Below are positions 27,601 to 33,600 of a stretch of DNA of 64,000 bases, one piece after another. Position 1 is the first letter of the stretch, and the number at the start of each line of letters is the position of its first letter. Source of the DNA: Stylophora pistillata (taxonomy: Eukaryota); NCBI RefSeq assembly GCF_002571385.2, contig NW_019218098.1, positions 15,619 through 79,618 on the forward strand, read 5' to 3'. The position numbers were made by a program.

Positions 27601-30600
27601 ATGAACCATCTTTTTACACTTGGGTAAAATCAGGCGCAAGAGGTACTAAACAGCGTTTGGGTAACTGTTTCCTGGCAGAAACTGGCCTTTAATCAGTGAA
27701 CTATCAAAAAGAAAAAGAAAAGAAACAAAAGTAAACTTCTTCACTATATAGCTAGTCGAAACTGTGAGAAATAATTTTGAGAGCAGCTGTGAGAAATAAT
27801 TTTGTTGATTATTTCAAAAAATAAATTATTTCAAAAGTTATTAAATTGATTTATTTAAAATTAAATTATTTAAAAAAATAAGGCCGAGTGAATAATGTTC
27901 TTGTATAATTTAGTTCCATTTGCAGGATAAAAGTCATTTTCAAAATAAGGCTTTGGGTATCGCGGAAATGGCCCATCAGAATCAACCTCAAGACAAGCTC
28001 GTATATAATAACAGTTTTCTTTACAGTAAGGGAGCACTGCAGTGTTTCAAGCCATGACTGTTTTGGTAATTATGGCGAGTAGGGAAAAATTAGGGGACTA
28101 ACTTTGCGGCAGAAGGCGCAAATTTAGCGACCTGCGTTTGGCAGTCACAGAGCAAGGAAAACCGTTCCTGTCATATTATTACGGTCTATCCCTTTACCTC
28201 CAAAGGGTGACAAAGAAAGAATTTCCCTTTCAAATACCGATACAATACCAGGCTGACAAGCAATGAGACTAAAGAAAACTTGATCCGACACCAAATTATC
28301 TGAAGTAACATCAAAGGAATTGTATCGCAAAAGGTAGGAAGAATTACTTAAAGAACTCGGGGAGTAAAAATCAACGATGCAGTAATGTGTTACATGGGAA
28401 TGGTACCAATTAATGAATGGAACCAGGGCTGCAGCATAATATGCAGAGGGGGATCAAGCGAGAGCCTTCATTGCTGAAATAAATTTTAATTGCAAAGAAA
28501 ATTACAAGTACGTCTTTGAAGCAAACGTTTCGGAAGAAACTCTCCTTTGGTCATACTTTTCCATTCCATTCCGATTGGTTTCAAGTTTCAGTAATTTTTT
28601 GAAAAGCTATTCGTTCGTGTAATATCTTATTTCGCAGGCAGCGGTTCGCATTGTGGTAGCTCTTCTTTTATCGCCTTCAACCGCTGGACAATGTTCGCAG
28701 ACGTTTCGTCGTTAGGATCTACAGCAAAATCCATCACGAACGAAATGGGGTCTACGCTATTAATGTTTCCCTCGTATGAGGCGAAAATGATATATTCCGA
28801 TCCGGGTTTGAACTCCATTGGACAGCCATACATGTCTCTGATGGTAAAACTGGAAGATAAACAGGAGAAAGGCTGAAATATGACTATGATAAAAAGCATC
28901 GGACGTCAAATTTATCTGTGACATTCTAGATATAATAGTGGTTTTAGGTACCAATCATTATTTATGGGGGGGGGGGGAAGGGGGTTCGAGGGATTTTGGA
29001 AGGGATTAAATGGTTGTCAAGAAGAACGGAGGAGGGATCAGTTGTTGCTAACAGAGTATAAAAGGGGGGAGTGTAGAAAATTGACTGACAATGGGGGAGG
29101 GGGGGACATAAGAACACCACATAGCCTTGTAGGGGATTCAGGTAAATTTCACTGTGACACAACCTAAATCATCCCATCTTATCCCATCCCACCCCCTCCT
29201 GGCGAAAAATATTGACCGGGCCCTTATGTCCAGTCGCGCTTGAGACTTGTGAAGCAGGTGGCAACTGTAACTGATTTGGCGTTCTTTGTTCCCAACTAAT
29301 CGATTGGAGAGTCCATGCCTTGACGCTTTTAACTTAGAGAAGCCGACAAGAAATTTGCCATCAGCAACAGGATAAGAGGACTCAACTTCAAGGCGAGAGA
29401 GGAATTTAAAGAGAGTAAATCTTTCTTTAAAGTTTTTAATGTCAGTAACTCACTCGTGCTTTATGGAGATTTCTTCGTCCGGCGAAACAACCATAGGCTC
29501 GTCTTGTCTGAGGATTTCCAATATTTTCACGTTCACCTCCAATATAAACAGGCTCTGGGAAGAAATTACTCTGGCGACTAAGGGGGTAAAAAGAAAAATT
29601 TAAAGATGTGGGCAAGGGTAACTAAGGTTTCCCGTTCCAGATCTTATACAACTGAGTTTTAAAAAAGCACCTGAGCCGCTCGTTTAGAACGTTACACCTG
29701 CTGACAAAAGTTGGTAGGCCAATCTTCTTTACGTGAATTCGTCAACCGGTAAGGTTTGGACCAGTCAGTGGAATGAAGTTTGTTTTCTGGTCAAACGCGA
29801 AATTTCATTTAGTCTCGTCATCTCTTATCGCATCGAACTTCTTCTCACAGTTAGGAGCAGATGTCGCCCACTGGCTGTAACCCATCGACCGTAATTAAAT
29901 AGGTACCCCTCAGAAAAGTTTTACAAATAATGCTTCAAACGCAGACCACGACCAAGAAGGAAGCCAAACGTAATTTCATGAAACAACAACAACAACACAA
30001 TATCGATTAGTGTACATACCAAGATTGCTGCCACACATCATTTCATCCAGATTGTCCTCTGTTTCATCTATGAAATATTAAGATCATTGTTTGAATTACG
30101 AGGACAAAACTGGCCGAGGCTGAATTAGAACCTGCCATTTCCCAGCTCCTTAGCAGCCGTTGCGTTTGGAGCTCGCCATGCATCACGCTTCTTCTTAGAC
30201 AGTGGAGGAAGGAGCGTGGGGCGAGCGCTAATAGGAAGAAGCAAAGTCAACCTTGAAATATCATTCTCCTGATTGGTCCCCAGTCGTCTTCAAACAACTT
30301 CATAGAGCGCACGGCACGGGGCGAGGTGGGAACGCAGGGTGAGATGGGTAGGGAGAAAGCGAGAGAGGAAAACTTCTCTTCCCCTTCCCATTATCCCTTG
30401 CTCCCTTGCCATGTGTGGTATGAAGACAACTAGGGACGAGTCGGAGCATTCCCTTAATCCTTTGCGGACACGTGGTGTGTCCTCTTGGAACGACATCGTT
30501 TTGATATGGTTGTGCTTCGGGCTTTGCAATAAGCTATTACTGTTTCCGGTTTTGAATACCTCGGTCTGTAGTCCTGATGTTGACTTGGAAACCGGAAGCT

Positions 30601-33600
30601 ACTCTATTGGGAGGAATACCAGAGTTCAGAACAATCTGCATACAAGTGGAATTACAATGAGACACAAAGGAGCCAGGAGACACCTTGGAACCACAGTATG
30701 TCCTCCATGGAAATTGCTGCCGATCACATTCTGGGGGCAAAAATATTGAATATATCTTAGAGCCCATTCAAACTTTGACGGATTCATTTAAAATTCAACT
30801 TTGTTCCTTGAGAGAAGTCAGGTGTCCACACTGAATTTGGTAAATCGTCCGGCGAAAACAGTGCTTCTCGAAAACTCTCTTGAAACATATGTATGAACTG
30901 CGGTTATGAACCGTATATGTGCACGATCCTTCGCAGTAAAGCACAAGAAAAGAAGAAGAAAAGAAAAGTGAGATACTACATACATACATACATACATACA
31001 TACATACATACGTACATACATACATACATACATACATTTATTTGGTAAAGCAGGTTAAGTTAATACAATCGCAGCAAAAAGCTGATGCGGACTGCCTTTG
31101 TTTTTTAACTCAGTGAGTTTAATATGAGTGGAAATAAAGCACAAATGAATGCCATGAAAGGATAATGTGTTGAGTATGTTATATCCTGCCAGACCATCCG
31201 AGTGATCAGGCGCATCCATTATCGATCTTTAAAAGCGTTTAGCTTTGAGAACTCCTACAAGCCGCCGCCAACCTGTCTGTCGTCATTATGCACTTGTGTG
31301 ACAACATGCCACTTAATGCAAAATTCATATATCAACAGTAACCCCCAAAAATGAATTGCTCTTAACTTATACTCTCAATTATGCATGCATTAGCACGCGT
31401 GCCCGTTAACCGTCGAAGGTGTGCTTTTCATGGATAGTCATTGTTAATTTCTTATTGTTCTCGATTTGGCTTTAAACCTAGTCATGACCTCAAGGGCTTT
31501 CAGTTGGCGTCGAAGGTTGTCTCACTGTGAGTTGCTTCTGTTATCCTGAGACATTTTGTTTCTGTTTGTTAGGCCGTTTTTTAACTCTCTGTCCCTCACT
31601 TGCACAATAAGGCTAATCGTAAAACCTATCTTTTGAAAATGAGTTTTATTAGCATGATAGAGATATTTTTTCTCATTAAAGTCTTTGTGTTTTAAATACT
31701 CTTTTTTTAAGCAGAGGTTTCAGGCTTCCCTGAAATTGCCTTTTGACTTATGAGTGTAAAATTCTTAATTGAAGGTTCTGTTTCCTGGGAAACGCACGCC
31801 ATTCGGACATTTTTCATAAAGACATGTACCACTCTATAATTCGGTATGATTTTCAAGGTATGTACGAGAATCGATCTGACCCGGGTTTGCTTGCAGTTAA
31901 AAATTGTGCTATAAGGAATAAGGCGCGATTCAGCTAAAAGTGGTGGCTTTAAATTGCCGTGATAACTCACAAATTGCCTCTGATTACCATAGATATGATA
32001 TTTTAATGTTAAATAGGGCTAAGTCACACGATCGTCTTTTCCTTCCCGGTAAAAATTTGAATAAAGGAAAGAATAACATTTTAGTAGGATCTTGTAAACA
32101 ACTTTTGAATCCTGAACCCAAAATACGTCAGAATTCTCGATAAAAGCAAGCATCGAAATAATTGTTTGATGACACGAAAACGAAATCATAAATATTTACA
32201 TCCCAACTTCAGATGCACTTTATAACAGAGAACTTGGCAGGCTTTCATCTAAAGGGCGCCATAAATCTGAACATTGCATGATAGATGCACCATCGAGAGA
32301 ATACTTTTTTGTCATAAAAAATATAAATATAAGGTCGTCTTTGTAGGAGGCTCCATACCTGTTAAATTACGTTTTAAGTGAGAAAATTTAAATTTAAATA
32401 TTTGGTTTCAGATATTGATTGTGAAGAAAGTGAAATATAATTTGTTAGGAAGCGCTTAAGGGAAAGTTTGACGCACCAACTACAGTAGGCTCCAGATCAA
32501 TAAATATTGCCCTTGGGACGTGGTTTCCTGATCCAGTTTCGCTGAAAAACGAATTAAATGAATCGTCTCCTCCCCCAATAGTCTGATCACTTGGCATCAG
32601 TCCATCGGGCTGGATCCCGTGCTCCAAGCAGTACAGCTCCCAGCAAGCGTTCCCCATCTGACATCCAGCCTGACCGATATGAATAGAAATGCATTCACGC
32701 TGAAATGAAAGAGCATGATGATGTGAGAATAAAACTAAGAACTGGTATAGGATTGTACTTTCGATACTGCAAGTGCAGAAATCAGGGGTGGATACACCTT
32801 CCAGTGTAATATGTTTCGAACGGGATGTTGTATCATTTCTCCTTCAAATCAGGCGTTTTTGCATTTTGCTCGTCCTTACAAACTTAGCGCCTGGATCAGG
32901 CTACACTTTTTTAAACATTATCCTCTACTACGATGTCTACTGCTAAAAATTTGTTATAAAGAAACTCTTAATTCACTGCGCTTTCTAGACTTTGTTGATC
33001 TAAAGAAAATTGTACTCCTGACGAACCAGAACTTATCAAACAAAAAAGCGGTAAAAAAAAAGGAACATACCATATTGAAGATGTACCTTTGCGCTGCTTA
33101 ACCTTTGAATTGAACTCTCAGAGAGATATGCCACAACTTCCCTTCAGTTCGTTTCAGCTCTTTTTAAAAGCGTTTGGAATAGCCTGTGGATATTATTTCG
33201 CATTAGTAGGAATATAGAATGAAAATTAAACTGATTTAGCCAATCACAGAACAGAAAGAAATGCGACTTCCCATTTCTGATTGAATTTTTCGACGTGTAG
33301 ATACGTGCGGTGGCATGGTTCAAGTGACCAGTGGCAGCAGCTAGAGCATCATTAATGATATGTAATCACTCAGGAAGAAAATTCATTTTTCATCTGAGTG
33401 AAAAGTGAACGTCTGAGACATTTTATGGAGTTTACATGACGACATTTCATTCTACCAGGCCTCGAGAGTGGGGAATCACCAAAGATGGCGGCCGCTGCGA
33501 ACCTTCTTGTTGGTCGTTTAGCCTTAGTTACTGGTAAGATTAATCACTATGTTCAGCCTTTTTAATGGTATATGGGCTATAGAAATACTAACGAAAAGAA

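What the first reader, a model, noticed from the sequence alone, without database searches (positions are those of the whole stretch)
28627..32477. Foreign exons inserted in sense orientation and compatible phase inside alpha-tubulin: possible chimeric gene in the making
Seen: tubulin exon 2 ends in phase 1. The inserted exons 30560-30730 (171 nt) and 30020-30067 (48 nt) are phase 1-1, followed by 29454-29577 (phase 1-2) and a terminal exon 28627-28849, all on the tubulin strand with intact GT/AG sites. Inference: splicing could give an in-frame tubulin(1-75)-half-CUB-NTR fusion that ends at the imported 3' end, or in-frame cassette inclusions into tubulin. The allele may therefore be a tubulin knock-down or a new chimera.
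Basis: partly seen in the sequence, partly recalled or inferred. Interest (0 to 1): 0.7.

Follow-up and report, generated by a model that had tools for sequence, protein, structure and literature searches.

The report
Neighbour-gene fragment inserted in tubulin intron
A 4.2-kb, almost identical copy of the tail end of a neighbouring secreted-protein gene sits inside an intron of an alpha-tubulin gene, on the same strand and in a matching reading frame, so it could trap or lengthen tubulin messages, but whether it is ever spliced in could not be tested here.

Summary
Tubulin exon 2 ends in phase 1. The four exons have the stated lengths, phases and AG/GT sites, and the last ends in TAA.

New: the donor lies in the same window. 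Intron stretch 26697-30885 is an ungapped copy of 40255-44443 on the same strand, 13,558 nt away, with 8 differences in 4,189 nt. The donor is the 3' part of a secreted gene with TIMP/NTR-like, Ig, CUB and NTR-like domains, whose exon joins a 97%-identical database protein confirms.

The 4,248-nt insert is circularly permuted. 59 nt of the donor's far end come first, joined at a TGAAA microhomology, and perfect 32-nt direct repeats bound it. This points to a circular or template-switch intermediate.

"Half-CUB" is supported. "NTR" holds at fold level only (top hit PCOLCE1 NTR), with no Pfam NTR hit.

An ATTAAA follows the imported stop, so the insert resembles a natural gene trap.

Splicing into tubulin mRNA is untested. 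None of the 9 hit rows (7 distinct proteins) containing these exons carries tubulin. Same strand and same phase has about a 1 in 6 chance.

Verdict: a young partial-gene duplication of a known kind.

The parts
33071..33073 (-). alpha-tubulin start codon (end of exon 1), donor ATG|gtatgt
32477..32699 (-). alpha-tubulin exon 2, 223 nt, ends in phase 1
   Evidence: Pfam Tubulin positions 1-56 of 190, E 6.7e-17
26039..32476 (-). tubulin intron 2, 6,438 nt (2,190 nt without the insert)
26697..30944 (-). the insert: 4,248 nt copied from the donor locus, circularly permuted, both direct repeats included
30913..30944 (.). 32-nt direct repeat, copy at the upstream (tubulin 5') end of the insert; 31 of 32 identical to donor 40255-40286
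30886..30912 (-). 27 nt that match the donor's far end 40228-40254 (24 of 27), placed ahead of the main copy
30881..30885 (.). permutation junction: TGAAA (+ strand) shared by donor 44439-44443 and donor 40223-40227
30560..30730 (-). imported exon A, 171 nt, phase 1-1, C-terminal ~40% of the CUB domain; 155 nt of donor intron lie upstream of it
30020..30067 (-). imported exon B, 48 nt, phase 1-1, linker and first Cys of the NTR-like domain
29454..29577 (-). imported exon C, 124 nt, phase 1-2, NTR-like domain
28627..28849 (-). imported terminal exon D, 223 nt with TAA, NTR-like domain C-terminal part
28485..28490 (-). ATTAAA 137 nt after the stop, the only AATAAA/ATTAAA in the 700 nt after the stop, same in donor (42043-42048)
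26729..28484 (-). imported intergenic DNA: everything between the donor's 3' end and 65 nt before the ATG of the next gene (a 7TM receptor), so possibly that gene's promoter, now pointing at tubulin exon 3
26697..26728 (.). 32-nt direct repeat, copy at the downstream end of the insert
25890..26038 (-). tubulin exon 3, starts in phase 1
   Evidence: Pfam Tubulin 63-100 of 190
30945..31045 (.). native intron next to the insert: polypurine run, then (TACA)n microsatellite
40223..44443 (-). donor segment (4,221 nt; unit of the circle 4,216 nt)
42185..44288 (-). donor exons A' 44288-44118, B' 43625-43578, C' 43135-43012, D' 42407-42185
   Evidence: peptides 100% identical; same splice sites bar one C/T at -4 of A
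45030..48198 (-). donor gene's upstream exons, not copied: exon 1 48198-47766 (signal peptide + TIMP/NTR-like domain), Ig 45768-45511, CUB N-half 45224-45030; all end in phase 1

Best explanation
A very young DNA-level partial gene duplication. A 4.2-kb piece of the neighbouring gene was copied and inserted, in sense, into intron 2 of an intact alpha-tubulin gene 13.6 kb away. The piece runs from the middle of the intron before the donor's exon A, through exons A-D, the stop, the poly(A) signal and the whole downstream intergenic region. The donor encodes a secreted protein with TIMP/NTR-like, Ig, CUB and NTR-like domains. The copy is circularly permuted (donor far end, then donor near end) and carries a 32-nt terminal redundancy. 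The intermediate was therefore most likely a 4,216-bp circle closed at a TGAAA microhomology. It was either opened by a staggered break and filled in, or copied for slightly more than one turn, and then joined into a break beside a polypurine/(TACA)n tract without homology. Shown: the copy, its limits, the permutation, the repeats, the intact splice sites, phases and ATTAAA, and the identity of the donor. Inferred: the circle. Also inferred: the consequence, that the insert acts as a natural gene trap. On that reading, some tubulin transcripts splice exon 2 to exon A and end at the imported poly(A) site. This would lower full-length tubulin output from this allele and give an in-frame 263-codon message whose protein (no signal peptide, two truncated domains) is probably useless.
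For: Copy and donor: intron 26697-30897 matches 40255-44455 at 99.74%, with no gaps, on the same strand. True identity ends at 30885/44443, with 8 differences in 4,189 nt. Direction: only the 40-48 kb copy continues upstream into the CUB N-half, Ig and exon 1. Together these match the full-length relatives P0004 (486 aa) and P0006 (482 aa). The intron has no other match in the window. Permutation: 30881-30944 matches donor 40223-40286 at 60 of 64, placed ahead of donor 44443. Repeats: 32 of 32 identical, 4,216 nt apart, and found nowhere else in the window. No homology at the outer joins: native flanks versus donor flanks give P 0.14 and 0.67. Not a retrocopy: the introns are kept. Splice sites are identical to the donor's except for one pyrimidine swap at -4 of exon A. 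ATTAAA is kept. Acceptor A lies 1,746 nt after the exon 2 donor, against 6,438 nt for the exon 3 acceptor. Tubulin is otherwise whole: Pfam Tubulin 1-56, 63-100 and 102-189 of 190, and Tubulin_C 1-92 and 90-125 of 126, across exons 2-6. Circle-mediated duplications with reversed block order and only microhomology at the breakpoints are described in PMC7188851 (abstract, section 6) and PMC7450558 (abstract).
Against: There is no transcript evidence of any kind. 0 of 3 proteins found with exon D and 0 of 6 found with exon A carry a tubulin domain. 0 of the 120 listed tubulins (of 5,137 hits) carry CUB. This is weak evidence, because no hit is 100% identical, so this genome's own proteins seem absent from the database. 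A simple cut-and-paste of a circle explains neither the 32-nt redundancy nor the crowding of differences: 7 of 11 lie in 187 nt around the junction, simulated P 2e-5. Both features fit replicative template switching at least as well. Both repeat copies carry T where the present donor has A, so the source was not exactly the present donor allele. Same strand and same phase is expected about 1 time in 6 by chance (my reasoning, not a call). The assembly could not be checked against reads.
Confidence: 0.6

Rival explanations
1. Same insert, but made without a free circle. Replication-based template switching (FoSTeS/MMBIR) from a broken fork in the tubulin intron copied 64 nt at donor 40286-40223, switched at TGAAA to donor 44443 and copied 4.2 kb, then returned to the intron.
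For: Three joins with 0-5 nt of homology. The donor is only 13.6 kb away on the same strand. Differences crowd around the junction (7 of 11 in 187 nt), as expected of error-prone repair synthesis. The MMBIR model is PMC2621351 (search listing only). Mutagenised circles made by break-induced replication at microsatellites are in PMC11161834 (abstract). The insertion site abuts a polypurine run and (TACA)n.
Against: It needs two separate landings on the same 32 nt of the donor, and both copies carry the same T that the donor lacks. One circle read for more than one turn explains that more simply.
Confidence: 0.3
2. The insert is real but silent for splicing. It is removed with intron 2, tubulin expression is normal, and the in-frame arrangement is a coincidence.
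For: Strand and phase match is expected about 1 time in 6. No tubulin-CUB protein turned up. Alpha-tubulin is a gene where a trap allele would be costly, so a tolerated insert may be one that is ignored.
Against: The exons bring their own working acceptors, donors, 155 nt of upstream intron and a poly(A) signal. These are unchanged from a gene in which they are used, and they are transcribed before the exon 3 acceptor. This tubulin is a diverged paralogue (at most 88% identity in exon 2), so it may be dispensable.
Confidence: 0.35
3. Ectopic homologous recombination between a dispersed repeat (R) already present in the tubulin intron and the R copy downstream of the donor gene.
For: The 32-mer lies in a repeat with a third, 83-88% similar copy at 61282-61369. 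New genes arising by repeat-mediated recombination are described in PMC2211543 (search listing only).
Against: The native flanks on both sides of the insert are not significantly like the R flanks (P 0.14, 0.67, 0.34). The 27 nt at 30886-30912 are donor-like, not native-like.
Confidence: 0.1
4. Assembly artefact: reads of the donor locus were wrongly threaded into the tubulin intron.
For: The near-identity (99.8%) is within the range of allelic difference. No reads were available to check.
Against: It would need three precise false joins, a permutation and a clean 32-nt overlap, with both flanks landing in the same intron. The copy also has its own fixed differences.
Confidence: 0.07
5. Capture and transposition by a DNA transposon (Helitron, Pack-MULE type), or a retrocopy.
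For: Gene fragments inside introns are often carried by such elements (general knowledge, recalled).
Against: No terminal inverted repeats at 26697/30944 among the 11 inverted pairs found. The ends read GTATATG...AAAGCAC, not the TC...CTRR of Helitrons (that motif is recalled). 32 nt is far longer than known target-site duplications (recalled). Introns are retained, so no RNA intermediate. The donor is an ordinary gene with full-length relatives.
Confidence: 0.03

Closest known systems
Dispersed duplication through an extrachromosomal circular DNA intermediate (Takahashi & Innan 2020, PMC7188851; Chicote et al. 2020, PMC7450558; cattle colour-sidedness KIT translocations, PMC12235870, seen only in the listing with the start of its abstract)
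   Same: The copy has the donor's blocks in swapped order (A-B becomes B-A). There is only microhomology at the junctions, the donor is left intact, and the copy is inserted elsewhere.
   Different: The scale is 4.2 kb rather than 20-500 kb, and donor and target are only 13.6 kb apart. The swapped block is tiny (59-64 nt). There is a 32-nt terminal redundancy that the abstracts I read do not mention. The copy lands inside an intron in sense and in phase. No circle was observed here.
Chimeric genes born from DNA-level partial gene duplication / exon shuffling (Drosophila Hun Hunaphu, PMC1463047; D. yakuba tandem duplications, PMC5460883; both seen only in the listing with the start of their abstracts)
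   Same: A fragment of one gene, with its introns, is placed so that another gene's promoter and 5' exons can read into it. All the exons involved are phase 1, the class typical of shuffled extracellular modules (general knowledge).
   Different: Those cases have transcripts. Here expression is untested, and the recipient is a conserved cytoskeletal gene that stays intact around the insert.
Engineered gene-trap cassettes (splice acceptor - coding - poly(A)) and natural intronic polyadenylation (recalled knowledge, no call)
   Same: A sense-oriented acceptor, an open frame and a poly(A) signal lie inside an intron upstream of the remaining exons.
   Different: This one is natural and has four exons with internal introns. 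Trapping efficiency is unknown.
PCOLCE / procollagen C-proteinase enhancer (CUB-CUB-NTR), as the nearest solved relative of the donor protein's tail
   Same: A CUB domain is followed by a linker and an OB-fold NTR-type domain. 1uap (PCOLCE1 NTR) is the top structural match to the relative P0156 (E 2.9e-4, TM 0.57 by target).
   Different: The donor has one CUB, an Ig domain and a second TIMP/NtA-like domain at its N-terminus. There are only 3 Cys in the tail domain (read), no Pfam NTR hit and 16% identity to 1uap.

Membership tests
Circular-intermediate (eccDNA-type) dispersed duplication | Block order swapped between donor and copy (circular permutation) | tested here: met
   30881-30944 = donor 40223-40286 (60 of 64) lies ahead of 30885-26697 = donor 44443-40255
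Circular-intermediate (eccDNA-type) dispersed duplication | Only microhomology or short indels at breakpoints, no long homology | tested here: met
   5-nt TGAAA at the circle junction; native flanks not like donor flanks, P 0.14 and 0.67
Circular-intermediate (eccDNA-type) dispersed duplication | A circular molecule with the 44443|40223 junction exists or existed | not testable with these tools
   Needs outward PCR or Circle-seq. Template switching gives the same product.
Chimeric gene by exon shuffling | Foreign exons in sense, with splice sites and compatible phase behind the recipient's 5' exons | tested here: met
   phase 1 into phase 1, all AG/GT kept, junction codon GAA as in the donor
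Chimeric gene by exon shuffling | A chimeric transcript or protein is made | not testable with these tools
   No RNA data. 0 of 3, 0 of 6 and 0 of 120 listed proteins combine tubulin with CUB.
Gene-trap-like intronic cassette | Acceptor, open frame with stop, and poly(A) signal in sense inside an intron | tested here: met
   ATTAAA 137 nt after TAA, identical in the donor
CUB domain (Pfam PF00431) | Profile match above the gathering score | tested here: inconclusive
   Exon A alone: 0 families at E<=1. The donor's preceding exon matches CUB 1-61 of 110, 33 bits. The natural protein P0001 matches CUB 1-99 of 110, 45.3 bits, across both exons. So exon A is the missing C-terminal part, which the insert carries without the N-terminal part.
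NTR / C345C module (Pfam PF01759) | Profile match | tested here: not met
   Exons C and D alone: 0 families. P0001, P0002, P0004 and P0006: no NTR at E<=10 in 4 of 4.
NTR / TIMP-like OB fold | Five-stranded barrel with terminal helices, resembling solved NTR modules | tested here: met
   Tested on the relative P0156 (48% identical to P0001 in A3), not on the window's joined exons. AF2 gives helix, 5 strands, helix, with pLDDT 76-92 over residues 31-110. The top Foldseek hits are 1uap PCOLCE1 NTR, C5/C3/C4 C345C, TIMP-1 and agrin NtA, 10 of them with E<=0.001. Atlas NTR clusters score 0.90-0.91.
Transposon-carried gene fragment | Terminal inverted repeats or family-specific ends and a short target-site duplication | tested here: not met
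   No inverted pair at the insert ends among the 11 found. The repeat is 32 nt and direct.
Retrocopy | Intronless copy with a poly(A) tail | tested here: not met
   All three internal introns and part of a fourth are copied

The most novel reading that the evidence does not exclude
This allele is exon shuffling caught at its first step. A circle shed from the 3' half of a secreted-protein gene re-entered the chromosome inside a tubulin intron. The tubulin promoter now makes an in-frame tubulin(1-75)-CUB tail-NTR-like message that ends at the imported poly(A) site, possibly as a polymorphism. The imported upstream region of the 7TM receptor gene may meanwhile drive 5'-truncated tubulin transcripts from inside the intron.
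Probability: 0.2. Interest if true: 0.55.

Novelty: new member of a known kind. Interest (0 to 1): 0.4.

Why it matters
Donor, recipient and all three junctions of a very young (about 0.2% diverged) partial-gene duplication can be read in one 64-kb window. That makes it a clean natural example of how a gene fragment is moved into another gene's intron. The permutation and the 32-nt redundancy constrain the mechanism, and the outcome (trap, cassette, chimera or nothing) can be tested directly with RNA from carriers. It does not reveal a new kind of mechanism or gene, and a useful fusion protein is unlikely.

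Tried and rejected
1. Pfam on single exons A, C and D gave nothing at E<=1, so domain identity had to come from the donor's neighbouring exon and from natural database proteins.
3. The tubulin exon 2 search ('longer') was swamped: 5,137 hits, 120 listed, best identity 88%. It neither finds nor excludes a chimera, and it does not name the organism.
4. The fold search with the whole P0004 model returned only Ig and CUB proteins in the rows shown. A second model of the short relative P0156 was needed.
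5. The representatives search with P0004 was dominated by giant Ig/CUB proteins. Only about 10 hits were usable for alignments.
6. Rfam on 25000-46000 gave 0 matches, and ARAGORN on the window gave 0 genes.
7. A native repeat copy at the insertion site is not supported.
8. Transposon ends were not found.
No empty site or second allele could therefore be sought.
10. The organism was not identified.
11. The joined spliced models (tubulin exons with A-D, or A-D alone) were not built, translated or searched. Only lengths and phases were added up.

Full report
**What was checked**

I read 25800-33200 on the minus strand and translated each proposed exon on its own.

- The alpha-tubulin start codon is 33073-33071.
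- Exon 2 is 32699-32477 (223 nt), so the intron starts after 75 codons plus one base.
- Exon 3 starts at 26038 and completes the split codon G|AT.
- The four inner exons are A 30730-30560 (171 nt), B 30067-30020 (48 nt), C 29577-29454 (124 nt) and D 28849-28627 (223 nt, ending TAA).
- All four lie on the tubulin strand. Each is open in exactly the frame the phases require, and each is flanked by AG and GT with good pyrimidine tracts.
- By arithmetic alone, exon 1 + exon 2 + A-D is 792 nt, which is 263 codons plus a stop.
- A and B are 1-1 exons and could be skipped or included without changing the frame. C would shift it.

Every search was made exon by exon, and natural database proteins stood in for the joined form. 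The window has no N. I do not take the contig for human (at most 88% identity of exon 2 to any of the 120 listed tubulins).

**Where the exons come from**

A tblastn search of the single exon peptides against the window found each one twice at 100% identity. The second set lies at 44286-42188. A blastn search of the whole intron against the window showed that 26697-30897 matches 40255-44455 at 99.74%, without a gap, on the same strand. The offset is 13,558 nt. Base by base, true identity ends at 30885/44443, with 8 differences in 4,189 nt and none of them in an exon. With 566 exonic nt, none in an exon is not significant: P 0.20.

The 40-48 kb copy is the original, for two reasons.

- Only it continues upstream into three more exons: CUB N-half (45224-45030), Ig (45768-45511) and exon 1 with a signal-peptide-like start (48198-47766).
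- This whole series matches the full-length relatives P0004 (486 aa) and P0006 (482 aa).

The copy starts 155 nt upstream of exon A, inside the donor's 741-nt intron. It runs through the stop, an ATTAAA 137 nt after it (the only such hexamer in the next 700 nt) and the whole intergenic region. It ends 33 nt before the ATG (40190) of the next gene, an intronless rhodopsin-type 7TM receptor (Pfam 7tm_1, E 1.7e-18).

**The exons are real**

Exon D searched alone against longer proteins gave 3 hits among 21 candidates. Exon A gave 6 of 6. P0001 is 287 aa, 96-97% identical and comes from a contig of about 1.1 kb, so it is evidently spliced. The last base of tubulin exon 2 is G, the same as the last base of the donor's CUB N-half exon. 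The junction codon with exon A would therefore be GAA (Glu) in both contexts. The splice sites of the copy equal the donor's, except for a C in place of T at position -4 of acceptor A.

**Domain identity**

- *Single exons.* Pfam finds nothing in exons A, C or D taken singly.
- *CUB.* The donor's preceding exon matches CUB positions 1-61 of 110. P0001 matches CUB 1-99 of 110 across that exon and exon A. "Half-CUB" is therefore right: the insert carries only the C-terminal 40% of the domain.
- *Tail (exons B-D), sequence level.* There is no Pfam NTR hit in any of the four natural proteins, even at E<=10.
- *Tail, fold level.* The call is positive, but it was made on a relative and not on the window's own exons. 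The AlphaFold model of P0156 (161 aa, 10-row alignment A3, mean pLDDT 72.6, core blocks 76-92) shows a helix, five strands and a helix.
- *Tail, structural matches.* The best PDB matches to that model are 1uap (NTR of human PCOLCE1, E 2.9e-4), complement C5/C3/C4 C345C domains, TIMP-1 and agrin NtA. Ten have E<=0.001, and only two exosome OB-fold chains intrude among the rows shown.
- *Atlas features.* The Atlas feature search agrees (NTR clusters at 0.90-0.91). Such scores are also reached by 4-10% of shuffled proteins.
- *Supporting models.* The whole-protein model of P0004 (pLDDT 74.3) has the same element order at 355-483. Its fold search returned only Ig and CUB proteins.
- *N-terminal domain.* The donor's N-terminal domain looks TIMP/NtA-like too (Atlas 0.95).

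**Anatomy of the insert**

The insert is bounded by a perfect 32-nt direct repeat at 26697-26728 and 30913-30944, 4,216 nt apart and found nowhere else in the window. In gene orientation, the first 64 nt (30944-30881) match the donor's far end, 40286-40223, at 60 of 64. They then join at a shared TGAAA to donor 44443, and the copy runs on to donor 40255. The insert is therefore a circular permutation of a 4,216-nt unit, read for 1.008 turns.

The native DNA on either side shows no significant likeness to the donor's flanks (P 0.14, 0.67; and 0.34 against a third copy of the local repeat at 61282-61369). Both repeat copies therefore seem imported, not native. The native side next to 30945 is a polypurine run followed by (TACA)n, the sort of sequence prone to breakage (general knowledge).

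**Mechanism**

The permutation with only microhomology is the signature used to infer circular-DNA-mediated duplication in PMC7188851 (abstract and section 6 read) and PMC7450558 (abstract read). I favour a 4,216-bp circle closed at TGAAA, either opened by a staggered break and filled in or copied for just over one turn. It was then joined without homology into a break in the intron.

Two facts do not fit a simple cut-and-paste.

- First, 7 of the 11 differences between copy and donor lie within 187 nt around the junction (simulated P 2e-5). Three of them fall in the 27 nt at 30886-30912.
- Second, both repeat copies carry a T where the present donor has A. The third repeat copy agrees with the insert at 2 of these 4 sites (read by eye).

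Possible explanations are error-prone repair synthesis near the junction, a source allele different from the one assembled, or later change at the donor. The first is what MMBIR-type models and the mutagenised circles of PMC11161834 (abstract read) would predict. Template switching without a free circle is therefore a serious rival (0.3). Other explanations are unlikely or excluded:

- transposon capture;
- a retrocopy;
- repeat-mediated homologous recombination;
- mis-assembly.

**Consequences (inferred, untested)**

The insert brings a working acceptor with 155 nt of its own intron, three more exons and a poly(A) signal, in sense. They lie 1.7 kb after the exon 2 donor, while the natural acceptor is 6.4 kb away. 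This is the layout of a gene trap. I expect at least some transcripts to splice 32477->30730 and end near 28470, which would lower full-length tubulin output from this allele.

The fusion would lack a signal peptide. It would hold 75 residues of the tubulin GTPase domain, 40% of a CUB sandwich and one complete NTR-like domain that normally folds in the secretory pathway, so a useful new protein is unlikely.

The rest of the tubulin gene is intact. Pfam Tubulin and Tubulin_C are covered without a hole across exons 2-6, and the last frame ends ...EEAEEEEF. It is a diverged paralogue, which may make a trap allele tolerable.

Same strand (1 in 2) and same phase (about 1 in 3) is unremarkable by chance, and all the donor's internal exons are phase 1 anyway.

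No database protein joins tubulin to these exons: 0 of 3, 0 of 6 and 0 of 120 listed.

**Comparison and verdict**

This is a new member of known kinds: a small interspersed segmental duplication with a circular or template-switch signature, producing a potential exon-shuffling or gene-trap allele. Chimeric genes from partial DNA duplication are well documented in PMC1463047 and PMC5460883 (listings only). The cattle KIT case (PMC12235870, listing only; the original 2012 paper is recalled, not seen) is the classic example of a circle-mediated event.

The appeal of this case is its youth and completeness: donor, target and all junctions are in one window. Interest is 0.4.

Noticed in passing
window 39225-40190 (-) and insert 26697-28484: An intronless rhodopsin-type 7TM receptor gene (Pfam 7tm_1 E 1.7e-18) lies just downstream of the donor. 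The copied block stops 33 nt before its ATG. The tubulin intron has therefore also received about 1.8 kb of that gene's upstream DNA, pointing at tubulin exon 3, which could act as an internal promoter.
   Followed up: partly
window 30734-30920 versus 44292-44443 and 40228-40262: Differences between copy and donor crowd around the permutation junction: 7 of 11 in 187 nt, simulated P 2e-5. One of them is shared by both 32-nt repeat copies.
   Followed up: partly
window 61282-61369, 40223-40322: The 32-mer belongs to a short dispersed repeat with a third copy 83-88% alike. That copy is followed by an A-run and a stretch that looks like a tRNA T-arm, so it is perhaps SINE-like. ARAGORN finds no tRNA.
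   Followed up: no
window 47766-48198 (-): The donor protein's N-terminal domain has no Pfam hit. The Atlas places it next to agrin NtA and TIMP/NTR clusters (0.94-0.95), and it has the same helix, five strands, helix order in the model. The protein may therefore carry TIMP-like folds at both ends.
   Followed up: partly
window 45030-48198 and 43578-44288 (-): Exon 1 of the donor ends in phase 1, and its next four exons (Ig, CUB N-half, A', B') are all phase 1-1. The CUB domain is split between two such exons.
   Followed up: yes
window 30945-31045: The insertion site abuts a 24-nt polypurine run and a (TACA)n microsatellite of about 19 units.
   Followed up: no
window 23426-33073 (-): The alpha-tubulin is a diverged paralogue. 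Exon 2 is at most 88% identical to the 120 best listed tubulins, and the last frame ends ...EEAEEEEF rather than in Tyr.
   Followed up: no
window 57258-59061 (+), 62810-63265 (-), 63431-63877 (+): Mobile-element remains: endonuclease (Exo_endo_phos, E 8.9e-6) and reverse transcriptase (RVT_1, E 1.4e-18) in separate frames, like a broken LINE; a KDZ transposase fragment (E 4.3e-7); and a DUF3987 piece.
   Followed up: partly
window 7603-7953 (-), 12694-18123 (-), 33848-34327 (+): Neighbouring genes: NAC domain (E 6.4e-25), an SLC12 cation-chloride cotransporter (SLC12 E 3.2e-94, AA_permease E 7.7e-40) and a short-chain dehydrogenase exon (E 3.1e-20). The dehydrogenase lies between tubulin and the donor, on the other strand.
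   Followed up: partly
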